Positions 1-49,492 of a stretch of DNA of 64,000 nucleotides are shown piece by piece. A program made the position numbers and the translations under genes. The stretch is from a virus. The notes beneath the pieces are model-generated. The model was not told where the DNA came from, did no database searches, and saw only the letters and a list, made by a program, of their open reading frames with translations. Every line of letters starts with the position of its first letter. Position 1 is the first letter of the stretch. The stretch covers positions 1-64,000 of the IMG/VR virus record IMGVR_UViG_3300028840_002185. One strand, written 5' to 3'.

Positions 1-447
1 ATCAAGACGTATTTCTACCGAACCAGTTGTGTCATGTATAACTGTCTTTACCTCAAAATAATGCCAACGGGAATTTTGATAAACACTACTTGCACTTGAT
101 CCAAGAAGTGTACCTGCTCCATTATATACAACAAAACCAAATGAACTATTCATATGTACTCTTACTTGAATTGCATCACTTTCATCCATAATTTTAATAA
201 AAGGATAAGTTGAACTATATGAAGGTGTGCCTGCTCCTAAATAAAAAGCAAAACCTATTATTAATGTAGTTTTATTTCCAAGATTTAAATTCTTCTGCAA
301 AATGTGACTAATTACGCTTGCTGATGCTGCCTTAGTACCAAACCTTCCGGAAGATGTTAAGGTTGATAAGGATGCAGATGCCCATTTTTTTGCAACATCA
401 TCACCATCTGCATAAATATCAAATCCTTCCAAAAATAATAGAGCCAT
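1..447 (-). CDS. hypothetical virion-module protein, N-terminal 149 aa only (gene continues past the left edge)
   Basis: ATG at 447-445 on the minus strand, 7 nt after AGGAGA (rc of 455-460). I checked the frame triplet by triplet and it is open to nt 1 (MALLFLEGFDIYADGDDVAKKW...). Not in the ORF track because it is truncated. Confidence 0.6.
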   Translation of the reverse strand, partial: MALLFLEGFDIYADGDDVAKKWASASLSTLTSSGRFGTKAASASVISHILQKNLNLGNKTTLIIGFAFYLGAGTPSYSSTYPFIKIMDESDAIQVRVHMNSSFGFVVYNGAGTLLGSSASSVYQNSRWHYFEVKTVIHDTTGSVEIRLD

Positions 448-473: not shown

Positions 474-866
474 TTAAATTTTAGTGGCTTTAATAGTAAT
501 TCCAATGTTGGCAAGATTAGCATCTGCCGGATTAGGACAGATAATACTCATGTAATCGCCAGAACCACCATCAAATTCTGTTGCTGATGCCATGATAAAT
601 GATGGACTTGATTCTGTAGCTCCAAAGCGAATCGTTCCTACAGATGCACCATTTTTTTGAACATCAAAATCTGCTTGTGCTGCTGCTGCAACAGATGACT
701 TACCATTAGATCCTGACATTGCTGCTGCAACCTCTACTTTCAAATATGAAGGAATTGAAATAGTAATAATCTGACCATCCAAAGGCTGATCAACGATTGA
801 CAAAGCAAAGGAAACATCTTTGCTTGCACCACCACCACCTAACGGAATTAATTCTGTATTTGCCAT
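474..866 (-). CDS. hypothetical virion-module protein (130 aa)
   Basis: ORF with GAAAGGAAA RBS before ATG 866. Packed in the minus-strand fibre gene string. Gly/Ala/Ser-rich, no family recognised. Confidence 0.6.
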   Translation of the reverse strand: MANTELIPLGGGGASKDVSFALSIVDQPLDGQIITISIPSYLKVEVAAAMSGSNGKSSVAAAAQADFDVQKNGASVGTIRFGATESSPSFIMASATEFDGGSGDYMSIICPNPADANLANIGITIKATKI

Positions 867-872
867 GATTTA

Positions 873-1298
873 TTATTTCCTTTCTTCTACAAGCACCGAA
901 CCACTTGCGGTAAATTGCAGAACAATTTGATCAGCATTACAACCAACAGCAATTTCTCTGATTGAATTACTTGGCACAGGTAAGCCTGGAATATTTGCCG
1001 TAGCTCTCAAGAAAGCTGTCACTTCAGCATCAGAGCTATTATAGATAACCACTTTTTTTGTTTCTCTATTAATAGAAACAGTCTGATCATCTCCAACTCC
1101 GGTTGAAGTAGCTGTCTGAGTACGCATCAAAGGATTATAATAGGGAGCAGCAGATACTTCAGTCAATCCGGCATCAAGCAAAACATATTCCATTGTTTTT
1201 GATTGTCCAGGTTCTATTTTAATCGTTCTCCTTTTACCATCAAGATCCTCTACTTCTTCAATAATAGCAACTGTGGTTTCATTTTTGTAAACTGGCAT
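873..1298 (-). CDS. hypothetical virion-module protein (141 aa)
   Basis: ORF 7 nt upstream of the next gene, same strand and operon. No family recognised. Confidence 0.6.
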   Translation of the reverse strand: MPVYKNETTVAIIEEVEDLDGKRRTIKIEPGQSKTMEYVLLDAGLTEVSAAPYYNPLMRTQTATSTGVGDDQTVSINRETKKVVIYNSSDAEVTAFLRATANIPGLPVPSNSIREIAVGCNADQIVLQFTASGSVLVEERK

Positions 1299-1335: not shown

Positions 1336-2229
1336 TCACATAAATCGATGATAATTCAAGACTTCATTTGCGATTCTCTCAGGTTCAATCATAGCAAGGC
1401 AGGTCGCATATGGAGATCCTTTCCAAGGATGTTTGCATTTATCAATCGTTGAGATCCAACAGCCCCTTTCCCGACAACAATCAAATAATCCAAGTGAATT
1501 TATATATCTATGATCAGGATATGTTTCCCATCGACAATCTTCACGTCCTCCGGCAACCACCACACAGGGCTTATTAAATGCAGCAGCAAGATGCATTTGC
1601 ATAGTCACATGATTAATGCATCCTGAAGAATGATAAACCAATGAGAAATAGTCTCTTAGGTTCTCTGTAAGGCCCACCAAAGAACGAATTCTACTATGGG
1701 TATGATGTACATCCTTATTGCTGCCTACCTGATATAAATTCAATCCTGCATCCGTTAAAATATCAATAACCTTTTGCCACTTTACAGGTGGATACCCTTT
1801 AATAGGTATATCTATCTTTACTCCAGAATTAATTATCCAATAAGGTTTTTTAATTTTAAGACGATCTAAAATAATACCTTCTTTTTCATCTGGAGTTAAA
1901 TATATATCAGGTCTCATTGATGTTTTAAGTATTTTAAGATCATATAATTCATTAATCATATAAATAAACACAGAAGAAAAATGGTATCCAAGAGGAGCAA
2001 GTTTATCTCTTGAAGCAGCATAATCAAGTTCCTGAATAGGAACAGATCCATCTTTAGGAAAATAAGTAATATATGGATTATTGAAAAATACTTCTGGATA
2101 ACAACAAAGAACGTCTGTTTGTATAAGTCCAGGATATACTTTATGAAGATCTCTAATAGCACAAGTCAACATTAATAAATCTCCAGGGGCTTGCCATTGT
2201 TTAAATATTACTTTAGGTATAGCTCTCAT
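1336..2229 (-). CDS. glycosyltransferase family 9 (ADP-heptose heptosyltransferase)-like protein
   Basis: N-terminal GDLLMLTCAIRDLHKVYP and C-terminal GCINHVTMQMHLAAAFNKPCVVVAGG resemble WaaC/WaaF/WaaQ-type GT9 enzymes. The C-terminus also has a Cys-rich CC..RGC...C....C..MIEPERI tail. TAATG start/stop overlap with the upstream fibre gene at 2229. Confidence 0.65.
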   Translation of the reverse strand: MRAIPKVIFKQWQAPGDLLMLTCAIRDLHKVYPGLIQTDVLCCYPEVFFNNPYITYFPKDGSVPIQELDYAASRDKLAPLGYHFSSVFIYMINELYDLKILKTSMRPDIYLTPDEKEGIILDRLKIKKPYWIINSGVKIDIPIKGYPPVKWQKVIDILTDAGLNLYQVGSNKDVHHTHSRIRSLVGLTENLRDYFSLVYHSSGCINHVTMQMHLAAAFNKPCVVVAGGREDCRWETYPDHRYINSLGLFDCCRERGCWISTIDKCKHPWKGSPYATCLAMIEPERIANEVLNYHRFM

Positions 2230-3425
2230 TATTTCATCTTTATGTATTTTTTTATGCCTGATGGTAAACCTTGAGATAAAACAGGCAATTGAAATTTAGT
2301 TGAAGAATCATATTCTGTAAAATCGGCCCAAAGTTCAATGTCTGATCCATTATTACCTACCATAAACATTCCAACTCCAGGGATTACTGCTATTCTATTT
2401 CTAATATCTGAAGTTTGCGATAAAGATGTATTAATAGTTGTCGTGCGTGGTTGAAAGTTTCTGGCATCATCTTCTGCAATGTACCAAATAGGATAATATC
2501 TTGAATAACCTGTCATCATAAAGATATGTTTAGTACCATCATAATTACCTGTTGAGGGCCAAAACTCTGTAGATCCAAATTTACTTTGAATAAATGGAAC
2601 AGGCCACCAATCAAAGCCATTTGAAGATCTTAACCAAAAGTTATTATTAACGGTATTAAACCAAAGATTAAAATATGTTCCATCAAAAGTTACAGTACCA
2701 GGATATAAACCTTGATAATTAGGCGAAAGCCATTGAAAAATATCAGACGCAGTTGACCAGTTCTGTCCACCATCTGAAGATCTGTGCCATTTGTAATCAC
2801 TATAACTCCAGTAAATAAGATAGTTATTTCCACCACAGACATAAGCAAAATTAACACTATTGTCAGGCCATGATGCTGCATACCAATTGATTCCATCCGT
2901 AGAATAATCAAGAGGTCTTGGAGAAGTATTCATTGATGTTGCTACAAAATAATTTCCTGTCCAAATCAAGTAATTCCAATTTTTAGTTTGAGTCAATGAT
3001 CTGGAAGTCCAAGAGCTTCCATCTGTTGTGGTATAAGCTGTAGCTGAGTTATACCGGAGGGTCACAATAATGCTGCCATTGTTTGTTACCGTATAATAAT
3101 AATCAGATGAAGATCCTCCCAATGGACTATTAACATTCCAAGTGTCTCCGGCATCATCAGTATAAAGAACTTCAACTCCTTGACCTACAACAACTAATAT
3201 ATCTCCCATCCTTGTACAGGATTTAGGAGCATAAGTTCTTTCAGTCCAATACTGAAGTCGTTCATAACATTTTGGATGAAGATCTTGAGCTATTGCACAG
3301 TATTCAGGATAATCAGCTTGATCTAATATTTGACCATCAGCACATTTCCAATCTGCTGAAGGTGAAGCAATCGCTTCAATAACTGTACCGATTTCAAAAT
3401 CAACTTGAGTATTTATTAAATCCAT
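2229..3425 (-). CDS. tail fibre / receptor-binding protein: tail-collar-like N-terminus plus BNR/Asp-box-like repeats
   Basis: N-terminus GTVIEAIASPSADWKCADGQILDQADYPEY resembles the phage tail-collar domain. Repeats are TDDAGDTW, TTDGSSW, STDGINW and SSDGGQNW. Paralogous to 3425-4594. Confidence 0.7.
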   Translation of the reverse strand: MDLINTQVDFEIGTVIEAIASPSADWKCADGQILDQADYPEYCAIAQDLHPKCYERLQYWTERTYAPKSCTRMGDILVVVGQGVEVLYTDDAGDTWNVNSPLGGSSSDYYYTVTNNGSIIVTLRYNSATAYTTTDGSSWTSRSLTQTKNWNYLIWTGNYFVATSMNTSPRPLDYSTDGINWYAASWPDNSVNFAYVCGGNNYLIYWSYSDYKWHRSSDGGQNWSTASDIFQWLSPNYQGLYPGTVTFDGTYFNLWFNTVNNNFWLRSSNGFDWWPVPFIQSKFGSTEFWPSTGNYDGTKHIFMMTGYSRYYPIWYIAEDDARNFQPRTTTINTSLSQTSDIRNRIAVIPGVGMFMVGNNGSDIELWADFTEYDSSTKFQLPVLSQGLPSGIKKYIKMK

Positions 3426-4594
3426 TATTGTACCCTTATATATCTATTTAAACCCCTATCATAGTAGCGTTTCTTTTGATAATTGGGTAATTGAAAATGA
3501 GTACTTTCATTATAAATTTCTATCTTAGAAGTATAAGGCATTGAATAACCATAATTGCCAAAGACACACAAATTTCCTGATGTACTGTTATAAACTAAAT
3601 CATAACATTCACCCTCAAAAGGATTATTAAGCCAAGGATGAAATGTTCTAAGATCAAATGAATAAACACCCCAAGGTGATTGTGTTCCTACTCCAAAATA
3701 AATACTATCATAATATCTCCATCGCCATATATTAGCAGGTACATATCCTGCATTATTTAATGCTTCATCTGTATCAGTAGAAAAGGGTACAAACTCCCAA
3801 TCAGAACCATTATCTGAAATACCAACATATCCTTGAGCAGTACCAATTAAAAAATATCCATTACAATATTCTATTCCATACCACGGCCCTTGCGCTCCTA
3901 ATGTCTTTGACCAATTAGCTCCATTATCCGTTGAATAATAAATGGCTCCACCACTATTAGTAAGGACAATAGTTCCTGATCCATCAGAAGCACCATAATA
4001 GGTATTGTTAGAATCTGGCAAAACTCCAGTATCAGACCATGAGATCCCATCAGTAGATCTAATAACTTGAGTTTGATCTTTCGCTATTGCAATAAAATAC
4101 GTTCCATCAAAGACAATAACATTCCAATTATAGGAATAAGATAAAGTTCTGGTAGTCCATGAACTGCCTGTCGATGACGTTGCTCCTTCATTAGATCCAT
4201 ATCTCAAAGCACAAAAGACAGATCCATTCCATGCAGGGCCATACCAAGTTCCGGCAGTTGGCATTGTACTAAGAGTCCACGTAATACCATCTGTTGATCT
4301 ACTATATAATTGATCCCATCCACAAGCAACCCAAACTGGAGAACCAGTACTGCCGTTCCATTGAACTCTTTCAGCATATGGATAATCTCCACCTGTGTCA
4401 TAATCATCAGTAAAATTCCAATGACTATATAATTCAGGGTGTGGATTTTCCATTTTATTATAAAGAACAGGATAACTGGCTTGAGCTAATACTTGTCCTC
4501 TGCAAAGCATCCAGTTTAATGATGGAGGAGCATTACCTTCAATAATAGATCCAACAGGATATATTTCATCTGCTTTAGGAGCTAATAAAGTCAT
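3425..4594 (-). CDS. tail fibre / receptor-binding protein, paralogue of 2229-3425
   Basis: N-terminus VGSIIEGNAPPSLNWMLCRGQVLAQASYPVLY is tail-collar-like. Repeats are STDGITW, STGSSW, STDGISW, STDNGANW and SDNGSDW. 1-nt overlaps with both neighbours. Confidence 0.7.
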   Translation of the reverse strand: MTLLAPKADEIYPVGSIIEGNAPPSLNWMLCRGQVLAQASYPVLYNKMENPHPELYSHWNFTDDYDTGGDYPYAERVQWNGSTGSPVWVACGWDQLYSRSTDGITWTLSTMPTAGTWYGPAWNGSVFCALRYGSNEGATSSTGSSWTTRTLSYSYNWNVIVFDGTYFIAIAKDQTQVIRSTDGISWSDTGVLPDSNNTYYGASDGSGTIVLTNSGGAIYYSTDNGANWSKTLGAQGPWYGIEYCNGYFLIGTAQGYVGISDNGSDWEFVPFSTDTDEALNNAGYVPANIWRWRYYDSIYFGVGTQSPWGVYSFDLRTFHPWLNNPFEGECYDLVYNSTSGNLCVFGNYGYSMPYTSKIEIYNESTHFQLPNYQKKRYYDRGLNRYIRVQ

Positions 4595-7371: not shown

Positions 7372-10300
7372 CTATTCTAATAATAATTTATCTCCAGATT
7401 CTAATAATAATGAATCACCTGATTCAAGTAATAATGAATAATCCAACACATTAGCAGCAAAAAGATGGACATATCCATCTTGTGAATATTCTGCTAAACC
7501 AACTTTACCTGCTGAAAGAATAGGACTTGAATCATCATAATCAATATGCCAAGATCCAGGCTCGTCAGATCTACTACCTGACCAAACCTTTACCCTTATA
7601 TTAGCCCCTACAACTCTCATTCTTATCCAATACCAAGTAGACGTATCAAGAGTTATTGAATAGGTGTCTAATGTTGCTCCTGATCCGGCATTATATCTTG
7701 AAAGAGTTATTTGATCTGAAGTAAAATTAGTCCAAACTATATAGCCATTTTCAGAAGCAGCACTTCCACTAAGTCTTGCAACAGGGCCAATATTATTTGC
7801 TCCATCTGCAATTGTTGTAATGCAAGTTAATATATCTACATCGTTGCAATCAGGTATATCATCCCACGTTGCTGCCATCATTGAAGCAGAAGTCATATCC
7901 AATTGCATAATATTTTTAGATAAACTACCTGAAGTGGTTATGTCTAATGAAAAATTTCCTGTATTCCATTGTTCTGTCCAATCTCCAGGGGGAGATGAAA
8001 GAGTGTATTCTTCAAAGTCAGTTATATAATCAAACTGTTCATCTATTAATGTAACTTTAAACTCGTCACAATAACCATCATCATTAAAATTAAATAATCC
8101 AATTTTACCCATTGAAAATATTTGATTAGTTCCAGTTTCAGTATAATCAATATGCCAAGATCCAGGCTCACTACCTCCATCAGCCCAAATTCTGATTTTA
8201 ATATTATCTTCTTCAACTCTCATTCTTATCCAATACCAAGTATCTATTGCTAATGTAATAGAATAGGTATCTAATGAAGTTCCTGAAGCATTTTTAAATT
8301 TATATAAAATAATTCTATTATTAGTATCGTCAGTAAAGACAAAATAACAACTTTCATCAGTATCAGATCCTCCGATTCTCATGGCAGGGCCAATCAAATA
8401 TGCTGCTGAAGTAGGCCATCTTACTTTACAAAGAATTTCTCCATTATATTGTAATCCTACATCATCCCATGATGCTGCTGCCCTTTGACTTAATGTGGTC
8501 ATATCAAATTCTAATGATTTACCACCTGTATCTGCCGGAGAAGTTACAATGTCCAAATCAAAAGCAGTTGTATGGAAATGCTCAGTCCAATCAGAAGGTG
8601 GAGATCCAGTTGAATATTCGCTGAAGTCAGTTTCAAAATCAAATGTTTCTCCTGCAACGTAATCTAAGTCATCTCCTAATCCAAGTGATTCAGATATTGC
8701 TATCAACATCTCAGCAATTGTGTCAGTATCACCTAAACCAAGAGTTTCAGTTATATATTCTGTAGCTAATGCTTGTGTATCGTCACCTAATCCAAGTGAT
8801 TCTGTTAAAGCTATCAACATTTCAGCTATTGTATCGGTATCTCCTAATCCAAGTGATTCAATTATCTGCACTATATCAATGTAATCTAAATCATCTCCTA
8901 AACCAAGTGCTTCAGTAATCCTTTCAATTTCGTCAAGAGTACCAGATAAGCCAAGAGCTTCAAATAGATATTGAGTTTCAGGTATCTCAGAAATAGGCTT
9001 ATGAATCGATTCAGGAAAGTAAGGCAATAATCCATAACCTACAAAATCAATATCTGTTTCTTCTCCTATGTTAAAATCACTTGTTAATCCTTGAACGGTA
9101 AATGAATTTGCTCTAAAAGTTATAGTAGTACCTATTAATGAAGAATCAGTTATTGAATAAGAAATAGTTGAATCTGATCTTAAATATAAATATGTAGTTG
9201 GATCTATTGAATGTTCAACTATATCTGTGTCCTTATATCCTCTAACCACATTCATAAAAGCATAATTAGTTGTATCCAAACCATGATAATAAACTAATTC
9301 ATCATCGATCCAAAGGATTCCTTCAGTTGGAAATGAACCATCAATGGTATCTGGATCATAATAGATAATTTTATCATCAACACCTACATCTTGAGCTAAT
9401 AAGACAGATGAAACCGTCTGATTAACGATTCCAAAGTATTGAAAATCAGTTCCTACCTTTTGATATATCCTTGCTCCTACAAAGAAACCTGCATCATTTG
9501 CAGGGGCTTTAAATAGAAAATGCAAAGCACCTGTTTCTATATCCTCTTTAACTGAAAACCTTTCAACGTTATTTGGTATATATGGAGCAGGAAAACCTGA
9601 ACGTGGATATGAAGTCATTACAGGAATACCACTATCATGATAACAATAAGGATTAAATTCCTCTAATTCCATTTTAACTTCAAAATCCATCATTTCATCC
9701 ATTGATATTATTCTAAACCATCGATTAGACCATCCTGTAATTTCATGACTTACACCAATGATCTCTCCCATGCATATAGTTGTTCCCATTATATCAGTTT
9801 CAAAGGAACAGGTATATTTTTGATAATTTATTTGATCAAGAATTCTTTGAGCCATACGTCCTGCTTGTGTAGCTCTCTTAATTCCTGGCATATTATAAGT
9901 AGCAATTTTTTCAATTTCACCTAACACATCTAATCGATATGTATCTTCAGCTTCGGCAATATCCTTTATATAACCTACTAAACGATTTTTAAATTGAACT
10001 CTAACTTTATTAGGTCTATCTATCTCAGACTTTTCAGCAAATGCAAAAGATCCTTCCTTTATATTGTCTTTCTTTATACTAAATGATTCCCCTTGAGTTA
10101 AACCAGAATTAAGTTTCATTCCAAGAGTTATATAAGTAGAAGTCTGTTCAATAACCACACCATATCTACTATCAGGCCAAGGATATTGAAAGTCTAATAC
10201 TTTACCAAAATCAATTTCATCTCCTCTCCAATAATTGTCTGGATAAGCAGAGAAATCAGCATAAATTATATCACTTGCATCTGGATCTTGACTTACTGCA

Positions 10301-13300
10301 AAATTAGCTTCATCTTTTCCAAAATAATGAACTGGTACTTCATCAACATTAGGTATAACTAATTTAAATGGACGGTTATTTGCATCTGACCATTCACAAG
10401 GAGATATAAAGCCCTGACAAGTAGCTAATACTTCATTAATTACATCCTCTATTTTTCTTGCTTGATCATACGTTTGAGAAAATTGAAATCGTGGTTCAAC
10501 AATATCAAGATCTCCCTGTGGTCTATATATAGTAGCAGGAATTAATTCATTACAAATTCCTTCAGCTTCATAAACGTAAAGTAAATTTTCAAAATCACTT
10601 GGAAAATATCTTGGATCAATATAACTATTCCAAAATAATTCCATTATATTTGCAGGATTTTCGTCACATTGATACCATCTACCATTTGAATTACCAAAAA
10701 ATCCATAAACACATTGTTGAAAACTATCTGCTGTTGAACCTTCTACAAGACGAAATCCTTGACCATCAAAATGAACGTCACTTTTATTGATCATATAAAG
10801 CATACCACTTGGATTAGATTCATTAGGTGGTATATACTTCCAAAATTCATTATGACCTCCTGCTCCATGCATACCAGACCATTTCTTTGCATAGAAATAA
10901 ATTTCTTCGGTCATAGGAAACTTACCAATTTCGTAAATATTATCTCCCCATTTATTTACTGTGTACATATCTACTTGGTACAATGGGCCTGTAGAAATGC
11001 CTTTACGAAAAGCTATTTTTTGAATTCCTACACGATCAATATCAGCACCATAAAGTATAGGAATATTACTTGAAAGAACTCTTTCATTTGAAAATTTACC
11101 TTGAGTTAATCTTAAAAAATATGTTCCCCAAACTGCCGGACTATTAATTGTTGTAGTATTATTATCAAAAACTCTTAACAATGCATACCATACATTTTCA
11201 TATTGTGATCCTGTCCATTCTTTAACCGGAACAGTACCAACATAACACCAAGTAGGTGTATGACTTGCTGCATTTTGATTCATAACAGCATCAACTTCTT
11301 CAATAACTGATTTACTGGTAATATCTATTAAATATGAATGAGCAGCAAATTGTGTTCCATATAATGCTTGATTTCCCCAAACAAAAATCTGCTTATCAGT
11401 AGAGCATATTCTATAAACTATATCTGATGCTGTCCACCACCACCATCCATAAGAATGAGTTAAAACACGATCACTTTTAAATGTGGTAACTGATCCTCCA
11501 GTATTTTTATTTAATCTAATAACTATATCGTGAGAAATTTGAAATTCATTTGATTCAAAAATAGTCATTCGTGCATTAACTTCTGCCCCAACTTCTAAAA
11601 GAAAATCATTAAACTGTGTTAATATAGGATCAATAATATCTTCATCATAAGTTTCATCAGGATAAGTAAAATAAATTATTTCCCCAGGAACAGGATCTCT
11701 ACTTAAAGAAGAAGACATAGAAATAGTAGTATCAGTTGGGCCACTATAACTACAATCTTGTTGCTCTCCGGCAAATCCACATTTGAGCCATTCGGTTGCT
11801 GCCGGAGAACACATATCTGTTGGGTCTGGAGGATTACAAATAATAACATCTCTTGTACTACCCTCTCCTGCAATAGCAAACCCACAATCAGTTGCCGGAT
11901 GAAGACTTAATTTAACAACACTACCTTCCGATGGAACCTTTCCCCAACCTCCAGTTAATCCACCTTGTTCATCTTCTACATCTATATAAGTAGATGTTTG
12001 ATTATTTATTTTACAATATTTATAATAGCTATCTTGCTGTAATGCTGCATAAGCACCATCCCAATAACCATTAGGGTATTGAGAAAAATCAGCATAGCAT
12101 CGAGTATATGAATTTGCTCCGGCAGTAATTTCTCTTAGATCGGAAACAACACAATCATGCTGAACTACATTAGCAAATAAATAAATATAAGTATCATCAA
12201 CTTCCATGCTTTTTATAAAAATAGCAGGATTAACATCACCACTCTGCATAGCATTACATTCATAATTATAAAGCAAAGAAGTCACATGAGCAGTTTCACT
12301 TGTATTGTCATGATAATAAATATCAAATTTTATTCCATAATCTGCATGATGATGATCTGTTTTATCTACTCCATATACACCTGCACCTTGATTGGGATTA
12401 GTCCAATTCCGGTAAGACAAAACATATGTCCTATCATCAAATATATCTGTGGCAAATAAATATGTTCCTTTCAAAGTTAAATTAGCAGTAGCCCAAGCAG
12501 GAAAGGCATCATATTCAATATCACCATCATTTGAAGGATAACGTGGAAATTGTTCCATTCCTTCATAATAAATTGGACAACGATTAACTGATGTATAGGC
12601 ATTTAATCCTGCCATCCATTTATTATTTCCTAATTTATTATTAAATACCGTACTGCACGTTACCACATATTGATATGGTGATTCTGGTTTAGGTAAAACC
12701 TTAGACACAATAAGGCCATGACCACCTTGCATTGATTCCGGTGGCATACGAACTTGCTGCCTATTCATTTCAGCAGTTATTAAAGGAAAAGTATTTATAG
12801 GCCCAAAAGAAAAATCCCCAGGATTCATTTCAGCAAGATTTTCCAATTCAAAATTTATTGTAGATGATTGAGGATCAGTATTTAAAGCTGAAAAATCTGC
12901 AAAAAATCCTTTAAAATAAGCAATGGTATTTTTATCAAAATTTGCATCAACAAAATTTTCAATGGGATATGATTGTACCCATTTTCCTTGAGATGCATCA
13001 AACATTGTCATAGCATCATATGGATCAACAGGATTATCATAATTTTCAAAAATATCACTTAAAATTGTCCAAAACCAAATTGGTTTTTTATTAAAATGAA
13101 CTACTCCAATATGATAGTCTTTATAAAGATTATTATAATCAATATATCTTCCTGTAAAATTAACAGCAAACTCAGCCCACATACCGATATTACTTGATCC
13201 CAATTGATCAATAAAAGTTTCCCATGCAGCTTCATTTACACTATCACCCATATCTGGCAATTGACCAGAATCATAAGTTCCTAACGTATTTTTATTTATG

Positions 13301-13578
13301 TAGATACATTTTGCTGAAACAATATCAGAACCAATAACATCGGGAACAGGATCAATTACTGTTCTAAAAGTCTTATAGTCATCATTGATATATTCTTTTC
13401 CTGCCGGAGGATCTGGTGCAAACAAGTATCCGGCAAGGGCCATCCCTATTTGAAACCCAGGATAGCCACCAAGATACCCACCTATTATTCCACCAACGGC
13501 AGAAGAAATCAGGTGAGTCTTTTGTTCTGAACTGCCTTCCGTAAATCCTTTAGCAGTTTTTTCTATATCCATTGTCAT
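7372..13578 (-). CDS. giant tail-tip / host-specificity protein (lambda gpJ-like core, 2068 aa) with a C-terminal receptor-binding extension
   Basis: Collinear similarity to the 745-aa neighbour: EPRFQFS, YADFSAYPDNYW, QTSTYI, IKEGSFAFAE, GIKRATQAGRMAQ and GVSHEITGWSNRWFRIISMDEM. Also has LGLGD repeats, two tandem ~200-aa lectin/LamG-like domains and an LLLESGD tail. ATGA overlap with the upstream gene. Confidence 0.8.
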   Translation of the reverse strand: MTMDIEKTAKGFTEGSSEQKTHLISSAVGGIIGGYLGGYPGFQIGMALAGYLFAPDPPAGKEYINDDYKTFRTVIDPVPDVIGSDIVSAKCIYINKNTLGTYDSGQLPDMGDSVNEAAWETFIDQLGSSNIGMWAEFAVNFTGRYIDYNNLYKDYHIGVVHFNKKPIWFWTILSDIFENYDNPVDPYDAMTMFDASQGKWVQSYPIENFVDANFDKNTIAYFKGFFADFSALNTDPQSSTINFELENLAEMNPGDFSFGPINTFPLITAEMNRQQVRMPPESMQGGHGLIVSKVLPKPESPYQYVVTCSTVFNNKLGNNKWMAGLNAYTSVNRCPIYYEGMEQFPRYPSNDGDIEYDAFPAWATANLTLKGTYLFATDIFDDRTYVLSYRNWTNPNQGAGVYGVDKTDHHHADYGIKFDIYYHDNTSETAHVTSLLYNYECNAMQSGDVNPAIFIKSMEVDDTYIYLFANVVQHDCVVSDLREITAGANSYTRCYADFSQYPNGYWDGAYAALQQDSYYKYCKINNQTSTYIDVEDEQGGLTGGWGKVPSEGSVVKLSLHPATDCGFAIAGEGSTRDVIICNPPDPTDMCSPAATEWLKCGFAGEQQDCSYSGPTDTTISMSSSLSRDPVPGEIIYFTYPDETYDEDIIDPILTQFNDFLLEVGAEVNARMTIFESNEFQISHDIVIRLNKNTGGSVTTFKSDRVLTHSYGWWWWTASDIVYRICSTDKQIFVWGNQALYGTQFAAHSYLIDITSKSVIEEVDAVMNQNAASHTPTWCYVGTVPVKEWTGSQYENVWYALLRVFDNNTTTINSPAVWGTYFLRLTQGKFSNERVLSSNIPILYGADIDRVGIQKIAFRKGISTGPLYQVDMYTVNKWGDNIYEIGKFPMTEEIYFYAKKWSGMHGAGGHNEFWKYIPPNESNPSGMLYMINKSDVHFDGQGFRLVEGSTADSFQQCVYGFFGNSNGRWYQCDENPANIMELFWNSYIDPRYFPSDFENLLYVYEAEGICNELIPATIYRPQGDLDIVEPRFQFSQTYDQARKIEDVINEVLATCQGFISPCEWSDANNRPFKLVIPNVDEVPVHYFGKDEANFAVSQDPDASDIIYADFSAYPDNYWRGDEIDFGKVLDFQYPWPDSRYGVVIEQTSTYITLGMKLNSGLTQGESFSIKKDNIKEGSFAFAEKSEIDRPNKVRVQFKNRLVGYIKDIAEAEDTYRLDVLGEIEKIATYNMPGIKRATQAGRMAQRILDQINYQKYTCSFETDIMGTTICMGEIIGVSHEITGWSNRWFRIISMDEMMDFEVKMELEEFNPYCYHDSGIPVMTSYPRSGFPAPYIPNNVERFSVKEDIETGALHFLFKAPANDAGFFVGARIYQKVGTDFQYFGIVNQTVSSVLLAQDVGVDDKIIYYDPDTIDGSFPTEGILWIDDELVYYHGLDTTNYAFMNVVRGYKDTDIVEHSIDPTTYLYLRSDSTISYSITDSSLIGTTITFRANSFTVQGLTSDFNIGEETDIDFVGYGLLPYFPESIHKPISEIPETQYLFEALGLSGTLDEIERITEALGLGDDLDYIDIVQIIESLGLGDTDTIAEMLIALTESLGLGDDTQALATEYITETLGLGDTDTIAEMLIAISESLGLGDDLDYVAGETFDFETDFSEYSTGSPPSDWTEHFHTTAFDLDIVTSPADTGGKSLEFDMTTLSQRAAASWDDVGLQYNGEILCKVRWPTSAAYLIGPAMRIGGSDTDESCYFVFTDDTNNRIILYKFKNASGTSLDTYSITLAIDTWYWIRMRVEEDNIKIRIWADGGSEPGSWHIDYTETGTNQIFSMGKIGLFNFNDDGYCDEFKVTLIDEQFDYITDFEEYTLSSPPGDWTEQWNTGNFSLDITTSGSLSKNIMQLDMTSASMMAATWDDIPDCNDVDILTCITTIADGANNIGPVARLSGSAASENGYIVWTNFTSDQITLSRYNAGSGATLDTYSITLDTSTWYWIRMRVVGANIRVKVWSGSRSDEPGSWHIDYDDSSPILSAGKVGLAEYSQDGYVHLFAANVLDYSLLLESGDSLLLESGDKLLLE
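7440..8650 (-). repeat. tandem duplication of a ~200-aa lectin/LamG-like domain
   Basis: Identical 28 nt (AACTCTCATTCTTATCCAATACCAAGTA) at 7612-7639 and 8215-8242, 603 nt apart. Peptides are TWYWIRMRV...SEPGSWHIDY and TWYWIRMRV...DEPGSWHIDY. Confidence 0.8.
8650..8970 (-). repeat. E(S/T/A)LGLGD peptide-repeat region inside the 2068-aa protein
   Basis: Includes a duplicated 27-aa unit, ETLGLGDTDTIAEMLIA(L/I)(T/S)ESLGLGDD. At DNA level the word atctcctaatccaagtgattc recurs. Confidence 0.85.
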
Positions 13579-46435: not shown

Positions 46436-47461
46436 ATGAAAAGTTTGATTAATGAAATTAATGAAATTGGTTACATTGATTTTAGCAAAATCAATATAGC
46501 TGTCATTGGTGATTGTATGCTTGACATTTATCACTATGGATCAGTTGAACGTATCTCACCTGAAGCACCTGTTCCAATTTTCAAATCAAATAACTTAGAA
46601 CCAGAATACCGATTAGGTGGAGCTTGCAATACTGCATTGAACCTTGCCAAATTAGGTGTTAAAACTCATTTATTTGGGTTTGTAGGCAAAGATATTAATG
46701 CAACCTATATCAAGAGCTACTTGTTGGAACATAACATCAATTTTACATTAATTGAATTAAAAGACTATCCTACCATTACCAAAAACAGATACTTCTCAAA
46801 GAATCAACAAATCATCCGAATCGATCATGAGAACACAGATGGAGAGATCTACAATCATGGAAGACAACAGCAATTAATTAAAGTATTCAATGAAATGTGT
46901 CCAAGAATGGATGCTTTAATTATTTCTGATTATGGTAAAGGCACACTCTACAATCCTGTGTTAAATGCAATCATTGATGGTTGTGCTGAGAAAACTCCTT
47001 TCTTTGTTGATCCTAAAATAAATAATTGGGAGTTCTATAAAAACTCATTTTGCATTACTCCCAATTGGAAAGAATTCAAAGATGCTTGTCATCGTCCTTT
47101 AATGAAATACGATCCTGGTGCAGTTTCAATCATTGCAAGGCATTTATGTCATGAATACAACATCAAATACATTTTGATTACATTAGGATCTAAAGGAATG
47201 CAATTATGCAGCAAGGATGGTCACATCGAATCTCGATCAACAAAAGCTGAAGAAGTTTATGATGTTTCTGGTGCAGGTGATACGGTCATTGCTACTATGG
47301 CTGCTGCTCATTGTAAAGGTTATACAATGACCATTGGTATGCAATTAGCAACTATGGCAGCAAAAGTAGTTATAAGTCATCTTGGAACTTATGCTGTAAC
47401 TGATTCTGAATTAAGATTAGAATTATGTAAAAAGCATAGTACAAGTGGAAAGGAGTGTTAA
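46436..47461 (+). CDS. D-glycero-beta-D-manno-heptose-7-phosphate kinase-like (HldE/RfaE domain I, pfkB family)
   Basis: VIGDCMLDIYHYGSVERISPEAPVPIF, GGACNTALNLAKLG and DVSGAGDTVIATMAA match the HldE kinase-domain signatures. There is no C-terminal adenylyltransferase domain. Confidence 0.75.
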   Translation: MKSLINEINEIGYIDFSKINIAVIGDCMLDIYHYGSVERISPEAPVPIFKSNNLEPEYRLGGACNTALNLAKLGVKTHLFGFVGKDINATYIKSYLLEHNINFTLIELKDYPTITKNRYFSKNQQIIRIDHENTDGEIYNHGRQQQLIKVFNEMCPRMDALIISDYGKGTLYNPVLNAIIDGCAEKTPFFVDPKINNWEFYKNSFCITPNWKEFKDACHRPLMKYDPGAVSIIARHLCHEYNIKYILITLGSKGMQLCSKDGHIESRSTKAEEVYDVSGAGDTVIATMAAAHCKGYTMTIGMQLATMAAKVVISHLGTYAVTDSELRLELCKKHSTSGKEC

Positions 47462-47836
47462 GTGGTTACTAAATACAAATACAAAAACGCAGTTAAAAAG
47501 AGATACGGAGAACACAAATGTCCTTATTGTGGTAAGATCTTTCATCTGTCTGAATCATTAGCAGGACATATTGGTGGAGCGCATAGACGTTTCACAACTC
47601 AAACTGGAAAACCACATTGCAAGTTTTGTGAAACTGAATTGGTCAAAGGAAAGAATTGGCCTATGTGGGCAGTTAAACAACAAAATTTAATCTGCAAAAA
47701 ATGCAAACGTGAACAAAACCGAAAATCCTACCTAAAGAAAATGACCACCAAAAGAGAAAATAGAAGATTGTATGAAGAACGAAAAGCCAAAGCAATTGCC
47801 AATCGGTTAAAAAGGGAGCAGAAAAAAAATGACTGA
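47462..47836 (+). CDS. C2H2 zinc-finger plus zinc-ribbon protein with a basic tail (124 aa)
   Basis: CPYCGKIFHLSESLAGHIGGAH fits C-x2-C-x3-F-x5-L-x2-H-x4-H. It is followed by CKFC...CKKC. GTG start abuts the kinase stop and GGAAAGGAG lies upstream. Confidence 0.65.
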   Translation: MVTKYKYKNAVKKRYGEHKCPYCGKIFHLSESLAGHIGGAHRRFTTQTGKPHCKFCETELVKGKNWPMWAVKQQNLICKKCKREQNRKSYLKKMTTKRENRRLYEERKAKAIANRLKREQKKND

Positions 47837-48503
47837 AGCACCAATTATACCACGCAAAGCATTCATTGAGTTGATTGAGGAAATGGATCTTGATGACTTT
47901 ATGACAATTAACTTTAAATGTCTAAAGTTTGTATCAGGTAATATCTCTTTGACTGAGCTATTTCATATTGCAATGACCGTTTCTTTATTCCGGCCTAATT
48001 GGATTATGGAATTTGGCACATTTAATGGCAGAACTACATTGAATATGGCAATCAACAATGAACATGCAAATATTATAACAATTGATCTTCCAAAAAACCA
48101 AGTCAATCGTACACGTTATCCATTAGAAAGCAAAGGAACCAATAAATTACAATTGGATGAAACTGGATACGTTGGATTGAAAGGAAAACTCTGGACAGGT
48201 CAATCAAGTGAAATTGTTCAACGCATTACTCAAGTATGGTCTGATACTGCAAAAGTAAAATTCAATCAATATAAAGATAAAATTGATTTTCTTTTTATTG
48301 ATGCATCCCACACTTACGAAAATTGCAAGAATGATTCATACAATGGTCATAAGGTAATTAAAAAACATGGAATCATTTACTGGCATGATTACGCAGGATG
48401 GCCTGGAGTCACAAAAGCATTGAATGAATATTATATCAATGAAGGTGAACCAGAAAAGATGTATTGGTTTGATAACACTTCTATTGTTGGGAGATTTTTT
48501 TAA
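47829..48503 (+). CDS. class I SAM-dependent methyltransferase (Methyltransf_24-like)
   Basis: IMEFGTFNGRTTLNMA (motif I region), FLFIDASHTYENCKNDS and GIIYWHDY. Confidence 0.7.
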   Translation: MTEAPIIPRKAFIELIEEMDLDDFMTINFKCLKFVSGNISLTELFHIAMTVSLFRPNWIMEFGTFNGRTTLNMAINNEHANIITIDLPKNQVNRTRYPLESKGTNKLQLDETGYVGLKGKLWTGQSSEIVQRITQVWSDTAKVKFNQYKDKIDFLFIDASHTYENCKNDSYNGHKVIKKHGIIYWHDYAGWPGVTKALNEYYINEGEPEKMYWFDNTSIVGRFF

Positions 48504-49492
48504 TGAGCAAAATAATTATTTCTTTTATGGATCAAAAGAGTAAACCAAAAAATCCAGATAATTTATTTGGAATTCTTGATACTGAAAATGAACATTTTGA
48601 ATGGATTAAATTGTCTCATTTAAACAATACCAACAATTTTGTACATGGTATGGGAATGACTTATAATCAAAATTATTTCTGTGCCGGAATAATCCCAATA
48701 AGAGAAAGACTAACTTCAAATATTCTCACCATAAACCTTGAAACTGGTGAGAAAAAAATAACATATTTACATTTTACAAAAGCAATTCATGGCATGACTA
48801 CTTTAGATAATAACAGATTATTAGTCAATGCTACTCAAAACGATTGTGTTGTGGAGTTGTGTCTTAACAATGGATGGGTTGTTACTGAAGATCTTTATCA
48901 TCATTTTTTATCCAAAGACTATTGGGAAGAAATAAGGAGAAGATATTGTGATTTAAGACAGGATCAAATTATCTATCGTGGGCCTACATATGTGGACGAT
49001 AATTATCACAACAATTCATTATTTAAATTTAAAAACCATATCTATGCAACCATGTTTAGAGGATTACCACATATGCAAGGCGTAGATGGTGGAGGAGCAA
49101 TGTTTAATTTAAAAAATGGAAATGTGATAATAGATAATTTATCTCAACCTCATACTGCTTTTGTTGATTCGATGAAAAATCCTTGTGTATGTAATTCCTC
49201 CCAATTCACTTTTATTGTCAAAGGTAAGTTTAAAATTGCCCTTGACGGATATACAAGGGGGATACATGAAGACAAACAAAAAAGCGGATATTGGATTGGT
49301 ATATCAGCATACCGCAAATACAATGCAAAATTATCAAAATGGATTGAAAAGTATCGTGGAGACCAACCTCTTAAAGGAGCAAGAATTCAATTTGTCAGTT
49401 ATGATGGACAGATCGGAAATACTATCGAGCTTTCGCAGTATGGTAAAGAAATATTTGATCTCTTGCCCTACAAAAACGGAAAATGGAATTAA
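48503..49492 (+). CDS. hypothetical protein (329 aa), possibly DUF4915/TIGR03032-like
   Basis: TAATG coupling to the methyltransferase. The family guess comes only from general resemblance (HG..., RG...-rich repeats). Confidence 0.55.
   Translation: MSKIIISFMDQKSKPKNPDNLFGILDTENEHFEWIKLSHLNNTNNFVHGMGMTYNQNYFCAGIIPIRERLTSNILTINLETGEKKITYLHFTKAIHGMTTLDNNRLLVNATQNDCVVELCLNNGWVVTEDLYHHFLSKDYWEEIRRRYCDLRQDQIIYRGPTYVDDNYHNNSLFKFKNHIYATMFRGLPHMQGVDGGGAMFNLKNGNVIIDNLSQPHTAFVDSMKNPCVCNSSQFTFIVKGKFKIALDGYTRGIHEDKQKSGYWIGISAYRKYNAKLSKWIEKYRGDQPLKGARIQFVSYDGQIGNTIELSQYGKEIFDLLPYKNGKWN

What the first reader, a model, noticed from the sequence alone, without database searches (positions are those of the whole stretch)
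1336..2229. GT9 heptosyltransferase-like gene embedded in, and translationally coupled to, the tail-fibre genes
A 297-aa GT9-like protein sits in the middle of the fibre module, and its ATG overlaps the stop of the BNR-repeat fibre gene (TAATG at 2229). GT9 enzymes normally act on LPS cores. However, the GT9-related bacterial autotransporter heptosyltransferases (TibC/AAH type) O-heptosylate beta-helical passenger proteins. This phage encodes several Ser/Thr/Asn-rich fibres and beta-helix proteins, and a heptose kinase 45 kb away. Virion (fibre) heptosylation is therefore a testable hypothesis, and I am not aware of it being described for phages. The alternative is modification of host LPS.
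Basis: inference. Interest (0 to 1): 0.65.

Follow-up and report, generated by a model that had tools for sequence, protein, structure and literature searches.

The report
Sugar-transferase gene inside phage tail-fibre genes
An uncultivated ~108-kb phage carries a heptosyltransferase-like (GT9) enzyme gene in a fixed place among its tail-fibre genes and a heptose kinase elsewhere, so it may sugar-coat its own fibres; this is an inference from gene order and has not been shown.

Summary
Window 1336-2229(-) is a real 297-aa gene. Its ATG overlaps the TAA of the upstream BNR beta-propeller gene (TAATG), and unlike most genes here it has no Shine-Dalgarno motif. The protein is GT9 by Pfam, by profile match to WaaF, and by a confident AlphaFold model. 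The catalytic Asp (D17) and the phosphate-binding Lys (K144) are invariant. It is neither a WaaC/WaaF/WaaQ equivalog nor a TibC/Aah-type (BAHT) enzyme. It belongs to a large uncharacterised GT9 clade with a short, mostly acidic acceptor lobe and four invariant cysteines, three of which align with TibC's iron-finger cysteines. In every related phage sampled (37-92% identity) the gene sits in the same place downstream of the J-like tail protein. Other clade members lie after capsid genes or after a collagen-like fibre gene. Many are fused or adjacent to methyltransferases, other glycosyltransferases and HldE/HldC-type heptose-activating enzymes. The HldE-domain-I-like kinase at 46436-47461 is conserved across this phage group. 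Best reading: late, coupled glycosylation of virion fibre proteins, probably with heptose (about 0.45). Main rival: modification of host LPS or envelope glycan (about 0.3). No acceptor was demonstrated.

The parts
1336..2229 (-). GT9-like glycosyltransferase, 297 aa. GT-B fold with a short N-lobe of about 120 aa. Invariant G16-D17, K138, D140, K144, G228-R229-E230, and four invariant cysteines (C251, C257, C265, C277).
2227..2231 (-). TAATG stop/start overlap between the BNR propeller gene and the glycosyltransferase gene. There is no Shine-Dalgarno motif in the 22 nt upstream, whereas most window genes carry an AAGGAG-type motif.
2229..3425 (-). 398-aa BNR/Asp-box beta-propeller protein (my cluster c5, second paralogue), a likely receptor-binding protein. 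It is the immediate upstream partner and a candidate acceptor.
3425..4594 (-). 389-aa protein with a tail-collar-like N-terminus and a BNR beta-propeller (cluster c5, first paralogue).
873..1298 (-). 141-aa protein (cluster c14). It lies immediately downstream of the glycosyltransferase, or one gene further, in nearly all related phages. Function unknown.
474..866 (-). 130-aa protein matching C-terminal parts of tail-fibre PHROGs (phrog_7049 at E 9e-9).
1..447 (-). N-terminal 149 aa of a c4-family protein (MALLFLEGFD...), cut off by the window edge. Relatives carry arrays of 2-8 such ~335-aa paralogues here.
7372..13578 (-). 2068-aa J-like host-specificity protein (Phage-tail_3), which marks the start of the distal tail / fibre module.
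46436..47461 (+). [quoted passage not shown]
47462..47836 (+). 124-aa protein with a weak C2H2 zinc-finger match, conserved next to the kinase in a relative.
47829..48503 (+). Methyltransf_24 methyltransferase. The same family is fused or adjacent to GT homologues in other viral and bacterial loci.
48503..49492 (+). 329-aa DUF4915-like protein. It is homologous to cluster c48, which in relatives sits in the fibre module next to a second GT9 gene.
49978..50598 (+). Cupin protein with weak similarity to cupin-type sugar and sugar-phosphate isomerases. It could be an isomerase step of heptose synthesis, but this is speculative.

Best explanation
The gene encodes an active, soluble GT9-family glycosyltransferase that is a fixed component of the tail-fibre (host-recognition) module. 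It is made late, from the same mRNA as the fibre proteins, by termination-reinitiation at the TAATG overlap. It transfers a sugar onto one or more virion fibre or receptor-binding proteins in the cytoplasm before or during assembly. The sugar is most likely an NDP-activated heptose, whose supply is boosted by the phage's HldA-like kinase, and it may later be methylated by the phage Methyltransf_24 enzyme. Likely acceptors are the adjacent BNR propellers or other proteins of the module.

Shown: the gene, the overlap, the GT9 fold and catalytic residues, the conserved position, and the link to heptose and methyltransferase genes. Inferred: that the enzyme is active, that the donor is heptose, and above all that the acceptor is a virion protein.
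For: (1) Conserved position. In the window and in loci L001, L172, L087-L092, L094 and L003 (GT identity 40-92%) the gene order is J-like protein, c6, c16, c10, c17, BNR, BNR, GT, c14 and so on. In L095/L097/L109 (37-39%) and L004/L093 (41-45%) the gene is still in the module after the J-like protein, although its neighbours differ.

(2) Coupling. The gaps are TAATG, TAAATG or 4 nt in the close relatives. The gene has no Shine-Dalgarno motif while most window genes have AAGGAG. No promoter or terminator sets it apart.

(3) Other clade members also sit beside structural genes. In 10 dereplicated viral loci the gene follows terminase, portal and major capsid genes. In 5 it follows a collagen-like tail fibre.

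(4) Heptose link. HldE-like bifunctional genes neighbour the bacterial homologues (8 loci). HldC-like nucleotidyltransferase and NAD-epimerase genes neighbour the viral ones. The kinase is conserved in this phage group, and a relative also has an HldC-like gene.

(5) Fusions. Partners are Methyltransf_24, a second GT9, GT2, GT34, Mannosyl_trans3 and a PLOD (collagen glycosyltransferase) domain. This is the architecture of soluble enzymes that build a small methylated glycan stepwise.

(6) It does not look like an LPS-core enzyme. NCBIfam WaaC/WaaF/WaaQ scores are 15-19 bits against cut-offs of 135-185. The acceptor lobe is short and acidic (charge -2.3, family median -1.6) against +10.1 for WaaC and +4.8 for WaaF. 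The sampled bacterial homologues lie in mobile glycosyltransferase/methyltransferase islands, not in Kdo/core loci.

(7) Cys4 finger. It occupies the position of TibC's iron finger, which the TibC paper describes as contributing to recognition of the TibA substrate.

(8) Precedent. Mycobacteriophage virions are glycosylated by phage-encoded enzymes. The tibC gene overlaps its substrate gene tibA by 8 nt.
Against: There is no direct evidence for any acceptor. By profile comparison the family is at least as close to the LPS enzyme WaaF (probability 96%, E 1e-9) as to TibC (93%, E 2e-7). It lacks the beta-barrel and thumb that TibC has for assembly into its dodecamer, the form in which TibA is bound. 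Some clade members lie beside DNA polymerase/primase genes or in islands with LicD, GT1 and GT2 that look like polysaccharide loci. 23 of 57 dereplicated viral contexts could not be classified. N-lobe charge varies within the family (-8 to +5.9). Phages often place host-surface-modifying genes near tail genes. Within the window the heptose pathway is incomplete: only the kinase is present, with no GmhA, GmhB or HldC detected. The donor cannot be read from the sequence: of TibC's four sugar-binding residues only the Lys is kept.
Confidence: 0.45

Rival explanations
1. Modification of a host envelope glycan. The enzyme adds heptose (or another sugar) to the host's LPS core, capsule or another lipid-linked glycan during infection. 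This would alter or mask the receptor, blocking superinfection and stopping progeny from sticking to cell debris. Its place in the fibre operon would reflect only co-regulation with receptor-recognition genes.
For: All characterised GT9 enzymes except the BAHTs act on LPS. WaaF is the best sequence match among solved structures. The homologues found in bacterial genomes are almost all in phyla with an outer membrane. Some members sit in polysaccharide-like islands with GT1, GT2, LicD and epimerase genes. The literature routinely reads viral heptosyltransferases as LPS auxiliary genes (PMC10747093).
Against: The protein fails all three LPS heptosyltransferase equivalog models by a wide margin. 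Its acceptor lobe is short and acidic, unlike the basic lobes of WaaC and WaaF. No integrase or lysogeny module was seen among the window ORFs scanned against Pfam, whereas, from general knowledge, serotype conversion is typical of temperate phages. Late, coupled expression with fibre proteins is an odd time to remodel LPS. The position is conserved while neighbouring fibre genes turn over. The sampled bacterial homologues are not in core-LPS loci.
Confidence: 0.3
2. Glycosylation of phage DNA, for example heptosylation of a hydroxymethylated base, to evade restriction. This would be analogous to the GT-B enzymes recently shown to put heptose on 5hmC.
For: Phage GT-B enzymes together with a kinase-like enzyme and a cytidylyltransferase produce mono- and di-heptosyl-5hmC, and such gene clusters can lie near structural genes (bioRxiv 10.1101/2023.12.21.572611). 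The kinase/methyltransferase cluster of the window lies in the early, replication-side region next to a DnaD-like gene. A few clade members lie beside DNA polymerase/primase genes.
Against: The characterised DNA enzymes resemble T4 beta-glucosyltransferase. The model here matches only GT9 structures, with no T4 beta-GT among the top 50. No cytosine methyltransferase, TET/JBP or hydroxymethylase domain was found among the window ORFs scanned. The gene is in a late structural operon. Methyltransf_24 is an O-methyltransferase-like family, not a DNA C5-methyltransferase.
Confidence: 0.05
3. A non-catalytic role: a glycosyltransferase fold recruited as a fibre assembly chaperone, a structural component, or a sugar-nucleotide-binding module.
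For: Fibre modules often contain dedicated chaperones placed right after the fibre gene. The gene has tight one-to-one coupling with a fibre gene.
Against: The catalytic Asp and the phosphate-binding Lys are invariant across 28 sequences down to 35% identity, as are other cleft residues. The family is linked and fused to sugar-activating and sugar-modifying enzymes. Bacterial members have no fibre genes nearby.
Confidence: 0.05

Closest known systems
LPS heptosyltransferases WaaF (1PSW) and WaaC (2GT1/2H1H), CAZy family GT9
   Same: Same GT-B fold and same family HMM. They share the N-terminal G-D catalytic motif, the Lys that binds the beta-phosphate, and the '(M)H-x-A-A-A' donor-site helix (WaaF LMHVAAAL, here QMHLAAAF)..
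   Different: Scores lie far below the equivalog cut-offs. The N-lobe is about 120 aa instead of about 160, and acidic instead of basic. The donor-site Asp of the NDSG motif is Val here (read from the alignments). The protein has a Cys4 loop where WaaF, WaaC and 3TOV have no cysteines. A G-G-R-E motif replaces G-P-(S/T)-x-P. The context is a phage fibre module, not an LPS core locus.
Bacterial autotransporter heptosyltransferases TibC/Aah (BAHT; 4RAP/4RB4)
   Same: GT9-related GT-B core. TibC gives the best superposition of the solved structures (TMq 0.71-0.72, rmsd about 4.5 A). Both have a reduced N-lobe. Both have a four-cysteine finger inserted before the C-terminal helix: C257/C265/C277 align with TibC C342/C358/C370, and both have 'GCW'. 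In both, the enzyme gene overlaps a gene for a large surface protein (tibC/tibA overlap 8 nt).
   Different: There is no N-terminal beta-barrel (the protein starts at Rossmann strand 1). There is no beta-hairpin thumb (a 6-residue deletion opposite TibC 259-272). The first cysteine is offset by an indel. TibC's T226, R286 and W305 are D, Y and H here. The profile probability is no better than for WaaF. The oligomeric state and the metal are unknown. The neighbouring proteins are beta-propellers, not beta-helices with 19-residue repeats.
Mycobacteriophage virion glycosylation (Freeman et al. 2023, as cited in PMC12619734)
   Same: Phage-encoded glycosyltransferases modify virion structural proteins. 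Glycans are reported on the capsid and tail-tube subunits.
   Different: The hosts there are actinobacteria. The acceptors are capsid and tail tube, not fibres. That paper was not held in the library, so the enzyme families and gene layout could not be checked. No involvement of GT9 or heptose is known to me, and this rests on recollection only.
Chlorovirus PBCV-1 A064R-type multidomain capsid-glycan enzymes (from my own knowledge, not tested here)
   Same: Soluble virus-encoded enzymes that combine several glycosyltransferase domains with a methyltransferase to build a methylated glycan on a virion protein. This resembles the GT9+MT+GT fusions of this clade.
   Different: Different glycosyltransferase families, a eukaryotic host, and N-linked glycans. 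The window's enzyme is single-domain, and its methyltransferase is encoded 45 kb away.

Membership tests
CAZy GT9 / Pfam PF01075 | Match to the family HMM above the curated threshold | tested here: met
   28.0 bits against a gathering score of 22, E 1.7e-6, covering residues 122-246 only. The family profile hits WaaF 1PSW at E 3.2e-7.
CAZy GT9 / Pfam PF01075 | GT-B fold (two Rossmann-like lobes) most similar to GT9 structures | tested here: met
   AlphaFold2 model with pLDDT 94.4 and pTM 0.91. The top 31 Foldseek PDB hits are WaaF, Veillonella GT9 3TOV, TibC and WaaC, plus one GT9-like chloroplast NDH-complex chain (9grx_1, rank 26). This is a prediction, not a solved structure.
CAZy GT9 / Pfam PF01075 | Catalytic Asp in the first beta-alpha loop (WaaC D13, TibC D110) and Lys at the beta-phosphate (WaaC K192, TibC K230) | tested here: met
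   G16-D17 and K144 are invariant in 28 sequences. K144 aligns with the WaaF 'AKRWP' Lys and with TibC K230. The D17 equivalence rests on the shared motif (PGDLLM / VGDMMM / LGDLLG) and on a weak alignment.
CAZy GT9 / Pfam PF01075 | Uses ADP-heptose as donor | not testable with these tools
   Contextual support only: a heptose kinase in the phage, and HldE/HldC-like genes next to homologues.
LPS heptosyltransferase I/II/III (WaaC/WaaF/WaaQ equivalogs) | Score above the NCBIfam equivalog cut-off | tested here: not met
   TIGR02193 scores 18.9 against 185.3, TIGR02195 scores 18.7 against 134.6, and TIGR02201 scores 15.5 against 170.2.
LPS heptosyltransferase I/II/III (WaaC/WaaF/WaaQ equivalogs) | Full-size, basic N-terminal acceptor domain for anionic Kdo-lipid A | tested here: not met
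   The N-lobe is about 120 aa with pI 5.6 and charge -2.3, and the family median is -1.6. WaaC 1-160 has charge +10.1 and WaaF 1-165 has +4.8. This is a crude proxy, and the value varies within the family.
LPS heptosyltransferase I/II/III (WaaC/WaaF/WaaQ equivalogs) | Located in an LPS core biosynthesis locus (cellular homologues) | tested here: not met
   The sampled bacterial loci show integrases, IS elements, a methyltransferase, GT1/GT4, Gly_transf_sug, Mannosyl_trans3 and HldE-like genes. No Kdo transferase or core locus was seen. Only a few loci were annotated.
Bacterial autotransporter heptosyltransferases (BAHT: TibC/Aah) | N-terminal beta-barrel domain (TibC 1-97) | tested here: not met
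   The protein is 297 aa, and strand 1 of the Rossmann lobe starts at residue 6. hhalign covers TibC 183-388 only.
Bacterial autotransporter heptosyltransferases (BAHT: TibC/Aah) | Beta-hairpin thumb insertion that builds the dodecamer | tested here: not met
   The alignment has a 6-residue gap opposite TibC 'HYGQGFVWNHIPWG'. No hairpin appears in the DSSP assignment of the model.
Bacterial autotransporter heptosyltransferases (BAHT: TibC/Aah) | Cys4 iron-finger insertion in the C-lobe (TibC C339, C342, C358, C370) | tested here: met
   There are four invariant cysteines. C257, C265 and C277 align with C342, C358 and C370, and 'GCW' is shared. The first cysteine is displaced by an indel. The metal and the geometry were not testable. 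Whether other GT9 clades also carry such a finger was not tested, so it is not proof of BAHT membership.
Bacterial autotransporter heptosyltransferases (BAHT: TibC/Aah) | Conserved sugar-binding residues T226, K230, R286, W305 | tested here: not met
   Only K230 is kept (K144). T226 aligns with D140, R286 with Y194 and W305 with H213.
Bacterial autotransporter heptosyltransferases (BAHT: TibC/Aah) | Encoded next to its protein substrate, a beta-helical autotransporter with 19-residue repeats | tested here: not met
   The enzyme gene does overlap a surface-protein gene, as tibC overlaps tibA. However, the neighbours are BNR beta-propellers, not autotransporters.
Phage virion-glycosylation systems (mycobacteriophage type) | Glycosyltransferase genes placed within or next to the virion structural genes | tested here: met
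Phage virion-glycosylation systems (mycobacteriophage type) | Glycan covalently attached to a virion protein | not testable with these tools
   This needs purified virions or co-expression followed by mass spectrometry.

The most novel reading that the evidence does not exclude
Tail fibres or receptor-binding proteins of a widespread group of uncultivated ~110-kb siphophages are O-heptosylated, possibly with methylated heptose, by a phage-encoded GT9 enzyme bearing a metal finger. The phage would supply the sugar through its own heptose-activating genes. More broadly, a clade of more than 1000 sequence clusters of such GT9 enzymes, often fused to methyltransferases and other glycosyltransferases, would be a previously unrecognised protein-glycosylation system of phages and bacteria.
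Probability: 0.35. Interest if true: 0.8.

Novelty: new variant of a known kind. Interest (0 to 1): 0.6.

Why it matters
If fibres are heptosylated, this would be the first case of heptose on a phage virion. It would also be the first phage-encoded glycosylation of receptor-binding proteins in phages of (apparently) Gram-negative hosts. Sugar-coated fibres could change host range, stability, resistance to proteases or lectin-like defences, and recognition by animal immune systems. Viral 'heptosyltransferases', now routinely read as LPS auxiliary metabolic genes in metagenomes, would also need re-annotating. The enzyme clade is large (1138 representatives at E<=1e-30) and uncharacterised, so a single biochemical assay would annotate thousands of genes. 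If instead the enzyme remodels host LPS, it would be an unusual late-expressed receptor-masking function in a phage with no sign of lysogeny.

Tried and rejected
(1) Searches of GenBank phages by DNA and with three different family proteins found nothing. No cultivated phage or known host could be brought in.

(2) Sequence search of the PDB with the single protein gave only noise. A profile of the C-terminal Cys region alone did not retrieve TibC, so the finger equivalence rests on the full-length hhalign result.

(3) I considered that the Cys4 finger might prove BAHT ancestry and rejected this. WaaF scores better than TibC overall. I recall, untested, that CxxC-type motifs occur at this loop in other GT9 sequences.

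(4) I looked for canonical GT9 paralogues in the 167 fetched loci to test that recollection. None was present apart from a second Cys-less GT9 family (cluster c3).

(5) I looked for GmhA, GmhB and HldC in the window ORFs of 100 aa or more between about 40 and 63 kb, using Pfam, and for HldC by tblastn across the whole window. None was found.

(6) I tried to use 'Bifidobacterium' MAG contigs carrying homologues as evidence for hosts without LPS. I rejected this because their G+C (63-69%) and provenance make the binning doubtful.

(7) The promoter/terminator scan showed no enrichment and no signals setting the gene apart.

(8) PHROGs has no family for the enzyme. A literature search for DUF4915 returned nothing. 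Freeman et al. 2023 is not held in the library.

(9) The DNA-glycosylation reading was considered and ranked low.
Full report
**The observation.** The window carries a 297-aa ORF on the minus strand at 1336..2229. Read on that strand, the junction with the upstream 398-aa gene (2229..3425) is ...ATGAAATAATGAGAGCT.... The TAA stop and the ATG start therefore share one base. Most genes of the window are preceded by an AAGGAG-type Shine-Dalgarno motif, but this gene has none in the 22 nt upstream. That fits translation by termination-reinitiation. A consensus scan finds no promoter or terminator signals above chance, and none that isolate the gene. So it is part of the operon and not a self-contained insertion. 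The gene is real: 473 homologues at E<=1e-3 were found in metagenomes, the nearest at 92% identity.

**What the protein is.** Pfam places it in GT9 (PF01075, 28 bits against a threshold of 22), but only over the nucleotide-sugar-binding C-domain. A profile of 28 homologues (A1) hits E. coli WaaF (1PSW) at E 3e-7 and nothing else meaningful. An AlphaFold2 model built on that alignment is confident (pLDDT 94.4, pTM 0.91). Foldseek against the PDB returns GT9 structures first: WaaF, the Veillonella GT9 3TOV, TibC and WaaC. TibC gives the best geometry (TMq 0.71-0.72, rmsd about 4.5 A), against TMq 0.53-0.62 and rmsd 7-9 A for WaaC and WaaF.

G16-D17, the GT9 catalytic loop, is invariant across the family. 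So is K144, which aligns with the beta-phosphate Lys of WaaF and with TibC K230. K138, D140, R192, a G-G-R-E motif and four cysteines (C251, C257, C265, C277) are also invariant. The enzyme is therefore most likely active.

**It is not an LPS heptosyltransferase in the annotated sense.** The NCBIfam equivalog models for heptosyltransferases I, II and III score 15-19 bits against cut-offs of 135-185. The acceptor lobe is only about 120 residues and is acidic (charge -2.3, family median -1.6). The corresponding lobes of WaaC and WaaF carry +10.1 and +4.8. This is a crude proxy, and the value varies within the family.

**It is not a BAHT either.** I fetched TibC from E. coli H10407 (L168:28641-29861) and compared it with the family profile. 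hhalign gives 92-94% probability (E 2e-7 to 8e-7) over TibC 183-388. WaaF scores higher under the same test (96%, E 1e-9) and WaaC much lower (21%). TibC's N-terminal beta-barrel is absent, and so is its beta-hairpin thumb (a 6-residue gap). Of its four sugar-binding residues only the Lys is kept: T226, R286 and W305 correspond to D140, Y194 and H213.

One TibC feature is shared. The TibC paper describes an 'iron finger' in which C339, C342, C358 and C370 coordinate Fe(III). It is inserted before the C-terminal helix and contributes to dimerisation and to recognition of the TibA beta-helix (PMC4358343). In the alignment, C257, C265 and C277 of the phage protein match C342, C358 and C370, and both proteins have 'GCW'. 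The first cysteine is shifted by an indel. WaaF, WaaC and 3TOV have a loop at this position but no cysteines. I did not test whether other GT9 clades have such a finger, so I treat it as a resemblance and not as proof of kinship.

**Surroundings in the window.** The phage is a siphovirus-type genome with about 35% G+C. It encodes a portal, a prohead protease, an HK97-type capsid protein, an 1843-aa ORF in the position of a tape-measure gene (no Pfam match; assigned from size and position), a BR0599-type protein, an NlpC/P60 protein and a 2068-aa Phage-tail_3 (J-like) protein. Downstream of the J-like gene come small conserved genes. Next are two paralogous proteins with a collar-like N-terminus and a BNR/Asp-box beta-propeller (profile hits to GH74, Ycf48, sortilin and sialidases down to E 3e-11). 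Then come the glycosyltransferase, a 141-aa protein, a 130-aa protein matching tail-fibre PHROGs, and the start of a c4-family gene cut off by the window edge.

**The same order in related phages.** The gene order recurs in every relative fetched. These are L172 (92% identity), L001 (80%), L087-L090 (65-76%), L003, L091 and L092 (47-49%) and L094 (40%). In all of them the order is J-like, c6, c16, c10, c17, BNR, BNR, GT, c14, followed by arrays of up to eight c4/c25 paralogues. In L095, L097, L109, L004 and L093 (37-45%) the neighbouring genes differ, but the glycosyltransferase is still in the module after the J-like protein. Several of these loci add a second, Cys-less GT9 gene at the end of the module. 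The stop/start overlap or a gap of at most 4 nt is conserved in the closer relatives. A gene that keeps its place while the surrounding receptor-binding genes turn over behaves like a component of the module.

**The wider family.** It is large: 1138 representatives at 50% identity reach E<=1e-30. A scan of bacterial species genomes found 505 loci, mainly in Verrucomicrobiota, Planctomycetota, Acidobacteriota, Eremiobacterota and Bacteroidota. A scan of IMG/VR found 197. No cultivated phage in GenBank has one.

I called ORFs in 167 loci and clustered them. Recurrent neighbours in bacteria are HldE-like bifunctional heptose kinase/adenylyltransferases, GT2 enzymes and large WD40/AAA proteins. 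The few loci with Pfam annotation lie in mobile islands with integrases, IS elements, methyltransferases and other glycosyltransferases, not in core-LPS loci.

In viral contigs the commonest neighbours are Methyltransf_24/23 enzymes, a second GT9, an HldC-like nucleotidyltransferase and an NAD-dependent epimerase. In many contigs the GT9 domain is fused to Methyltransf_24. Longer fusions add Mannosyl_trans3, GT2, GT34, further methyltransferases, NTP_transf_3 and a PLOD (collagen glycosyltransferase) domain.

Of 57 dereplicated viral contexts, 9 are tail modules of the window's type. Ten follow terminase, portal and major capsid genes, and 5 follow a collagen-like tail fibre. Six follow an unannotated 1100-aa protein, 4 lie by DNA polymerase/primase genes, and 23 could not be classified. 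The family thus looks like part of soluble machinery that builds small, often methylated, heptose-containing glycans. In phages it is frequently, but not always, next to virion genes.

**The heptose link in this phage.** Window 46436..47461(+) scores 308 bits on the rfaE-domain-I model; the next family of sugar kinases scores 67 bits. It belongs to a set of standalone ~340-aa kinases found on ~109-111-kb contigs at 56-88% identity, so it is conserved in the same phage group. The nearest cellular proteins are HldE/HldA at 40-43% identity.

It heads a conserved cluster: kinase, a 124-aa zinc-finger-like protein, Methyltransf_24, a DUF4915-like protein, and a cupin with weak similarity to sugar isomerases. 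The methyltransferase belongs to the family seen next to GT homologues elsewhere. The DUF4915-like protein is homologous to cluster c48, which in relatives sits in the fibre module beside the second GT9. A relative (L173) also has an HldC-like nucleotidyltransferase downstream, and the window has no match to it. No GmhA or GmhB was detected in the window. The pathway is therefore incomplete in the 64 kb available, and the host or the unseen 44 kb would have to supply the rest.

**Interpretation.** The best-supported reading is that the enzyme glycosylates virion fibre or receptor-binding proteins late in infection. The supporting points are:
- its fixed position in the fibre module;
- its translational coupling to a fibre gene;
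- the placement of family members beside capsid and fibre genes in unrelated phages;
- the family's fusion architecture;
- its non-LPS-like acceptor lobe;
- the TibC-like finger;
- the precedent of mycobacteriophage virion glycosylation (cited in PMC12619734);
- the tibC/tibA gene overlap.

Heptose as the donor is supported only by family membership and by linkage to heptose-activating genes.

The main rival is modification of host LPS or another envelope glycan. All characterised GT9 enzymes except the BAHTs do this, and WaaF is the closest characterised sequence. Some family members sit in polysaccharide-like islands. The literature default is an LPS auxiliary metabolic gene (PMC10747093).

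DNA heptosylation exists in phages (bioRxiv 10.1101/2023.12.21.572611). However, it uses T4-beta-GT-like enzymes, and no base-hydroxymethylation genes were seen here, so I rank it low. A purely structural or chaperone role is unlikely given the invariant catalytic residues.

**Novelty and verdict.** GT9-like genes in uncultured phages have been annotated automatically before: BFVD lists 'RfaF', 'Glycosyl transferase family 9' and even 'Aah/TibC' entries. Virion glycosylation is a known phenomenon. What is new here is a distinct, large GT9 clade with a Cys4 finger that is a conserved member of tail-fibre modules and is tied to phage-encoded heptose-pathway and methyltransferase genes. I rate it a new variant of a known kind, with interest 0.6.

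Noticed in passing
window ~8660-8955 (-) (J-like protein aa 1542-1637) and ~6398-6632 (-) (250-aa protein aa 24-101): Imperfect 18-19-residue repeats centred on an 'x-L-G-L-G-D' motif. There are six copies near the C-terminal third of the J-like protein and five in the small protein encoded just downstream. They also occur in the close relative L001. The period matches the 19-residue repeats of heptosylated autotransporters, but this may be coincidence. They could instead be docking sites for the many fibre paralogues.
   Followed up: partly
L001:11774-19981, L003:10985-20680, L087-L092; window 1-447(-): Arrays of two to eight tandem paralogues (~335 aa; my clusters c4/c25; N-terminus MTLLxxDGFE) follow the glycosyltransferase in related phages. 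A profile search found no PDB or Pfam match. They may be a battery of alternative receptor-binding proteins.
   Followed up: partly
L004:16848-17687, L089:15916-16752 and other loci (cluster c3): Many related and unrelated phages carry a second, shorter (~280 aa) GT9-like gene without the Cys4 motif at the end of the same module. It is often preceded by a c48/DUF4915-like gene. It was not found in the 64-kb window.
   Followed up: partly
L129:2795-4570 and about 24 dereplicated viral loci; P0241, P0257, P0261, P0268: The GT9 domain is often fused to Methyltransf_24, and in long proteins (up to 1350 aa) to GT2, GT34, Mannosyl_trans3, a PLOD collagen-glycosyltransferase domain and a second GT9. 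These are multi-enzyme glycan builders of unknown product.
   Followed up: partly
L173:17364-17789: A relative of the window's phage (kinase 67% identical) encodes a 141-aa cytidylyltransferase-like (HldC-type) protein downstream of the kinase cluster. The window has no tblastn match to it, so the nucleotide-activation step is missing from the 64 kb seen.
   Followed up: yes
window 49978-50598 (+): A cupin protein in the kinase cluster is weakly similar to cupin-type mannose-6-phosphate, lyxose and ribose isomerases (E 4e-4 to 3e-2). It could stand in for the missing GmhA sedoheptulose-7-phosphate isomerase. Untested.
   Followed up: no
window ~7372-8640 (-) (C-terminal ~420 aa of the J-like protein): The C-terminus of the 2068-aa protein contains two similar ~190-aa segments (each starting FD(F/Y)xTDFxEY...SPP(S/G)DWTE and ending IR(I/V)(R/K)(I/V)W). 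It ends in a short LLLESGD(S/K)LLLE repeat. Seen by eye in the translation only.
   Followed up: no
L168:28641-32823 (E. coli H10407): The control locus shows that tibC (annotated 'autotransporter strand-loop-strand O-heptosyltransferase') overlaps the start of its substrate gene tibA by 8 nt. This is the same kind of enzyme/substrate gene coupling as proposed here.
   Followed up: yes
window 52001-52423 (+): A 140-aa protein with a strong DUF4326 match (E 1.5e-22) lies in the early region. It has no evident relation to the finding.
   Followed up: no
L007 and L101: A 16,012-bp contig binned as a Sulfuricurvum MAG has the same length, match coordinates and hit statistics as an IMG/VR viral contig carrying a family member (their sequences were not compared directly). 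This is a possible host hint for that phage (Campylobacterota), or a binning artefact.
   Followed up: no
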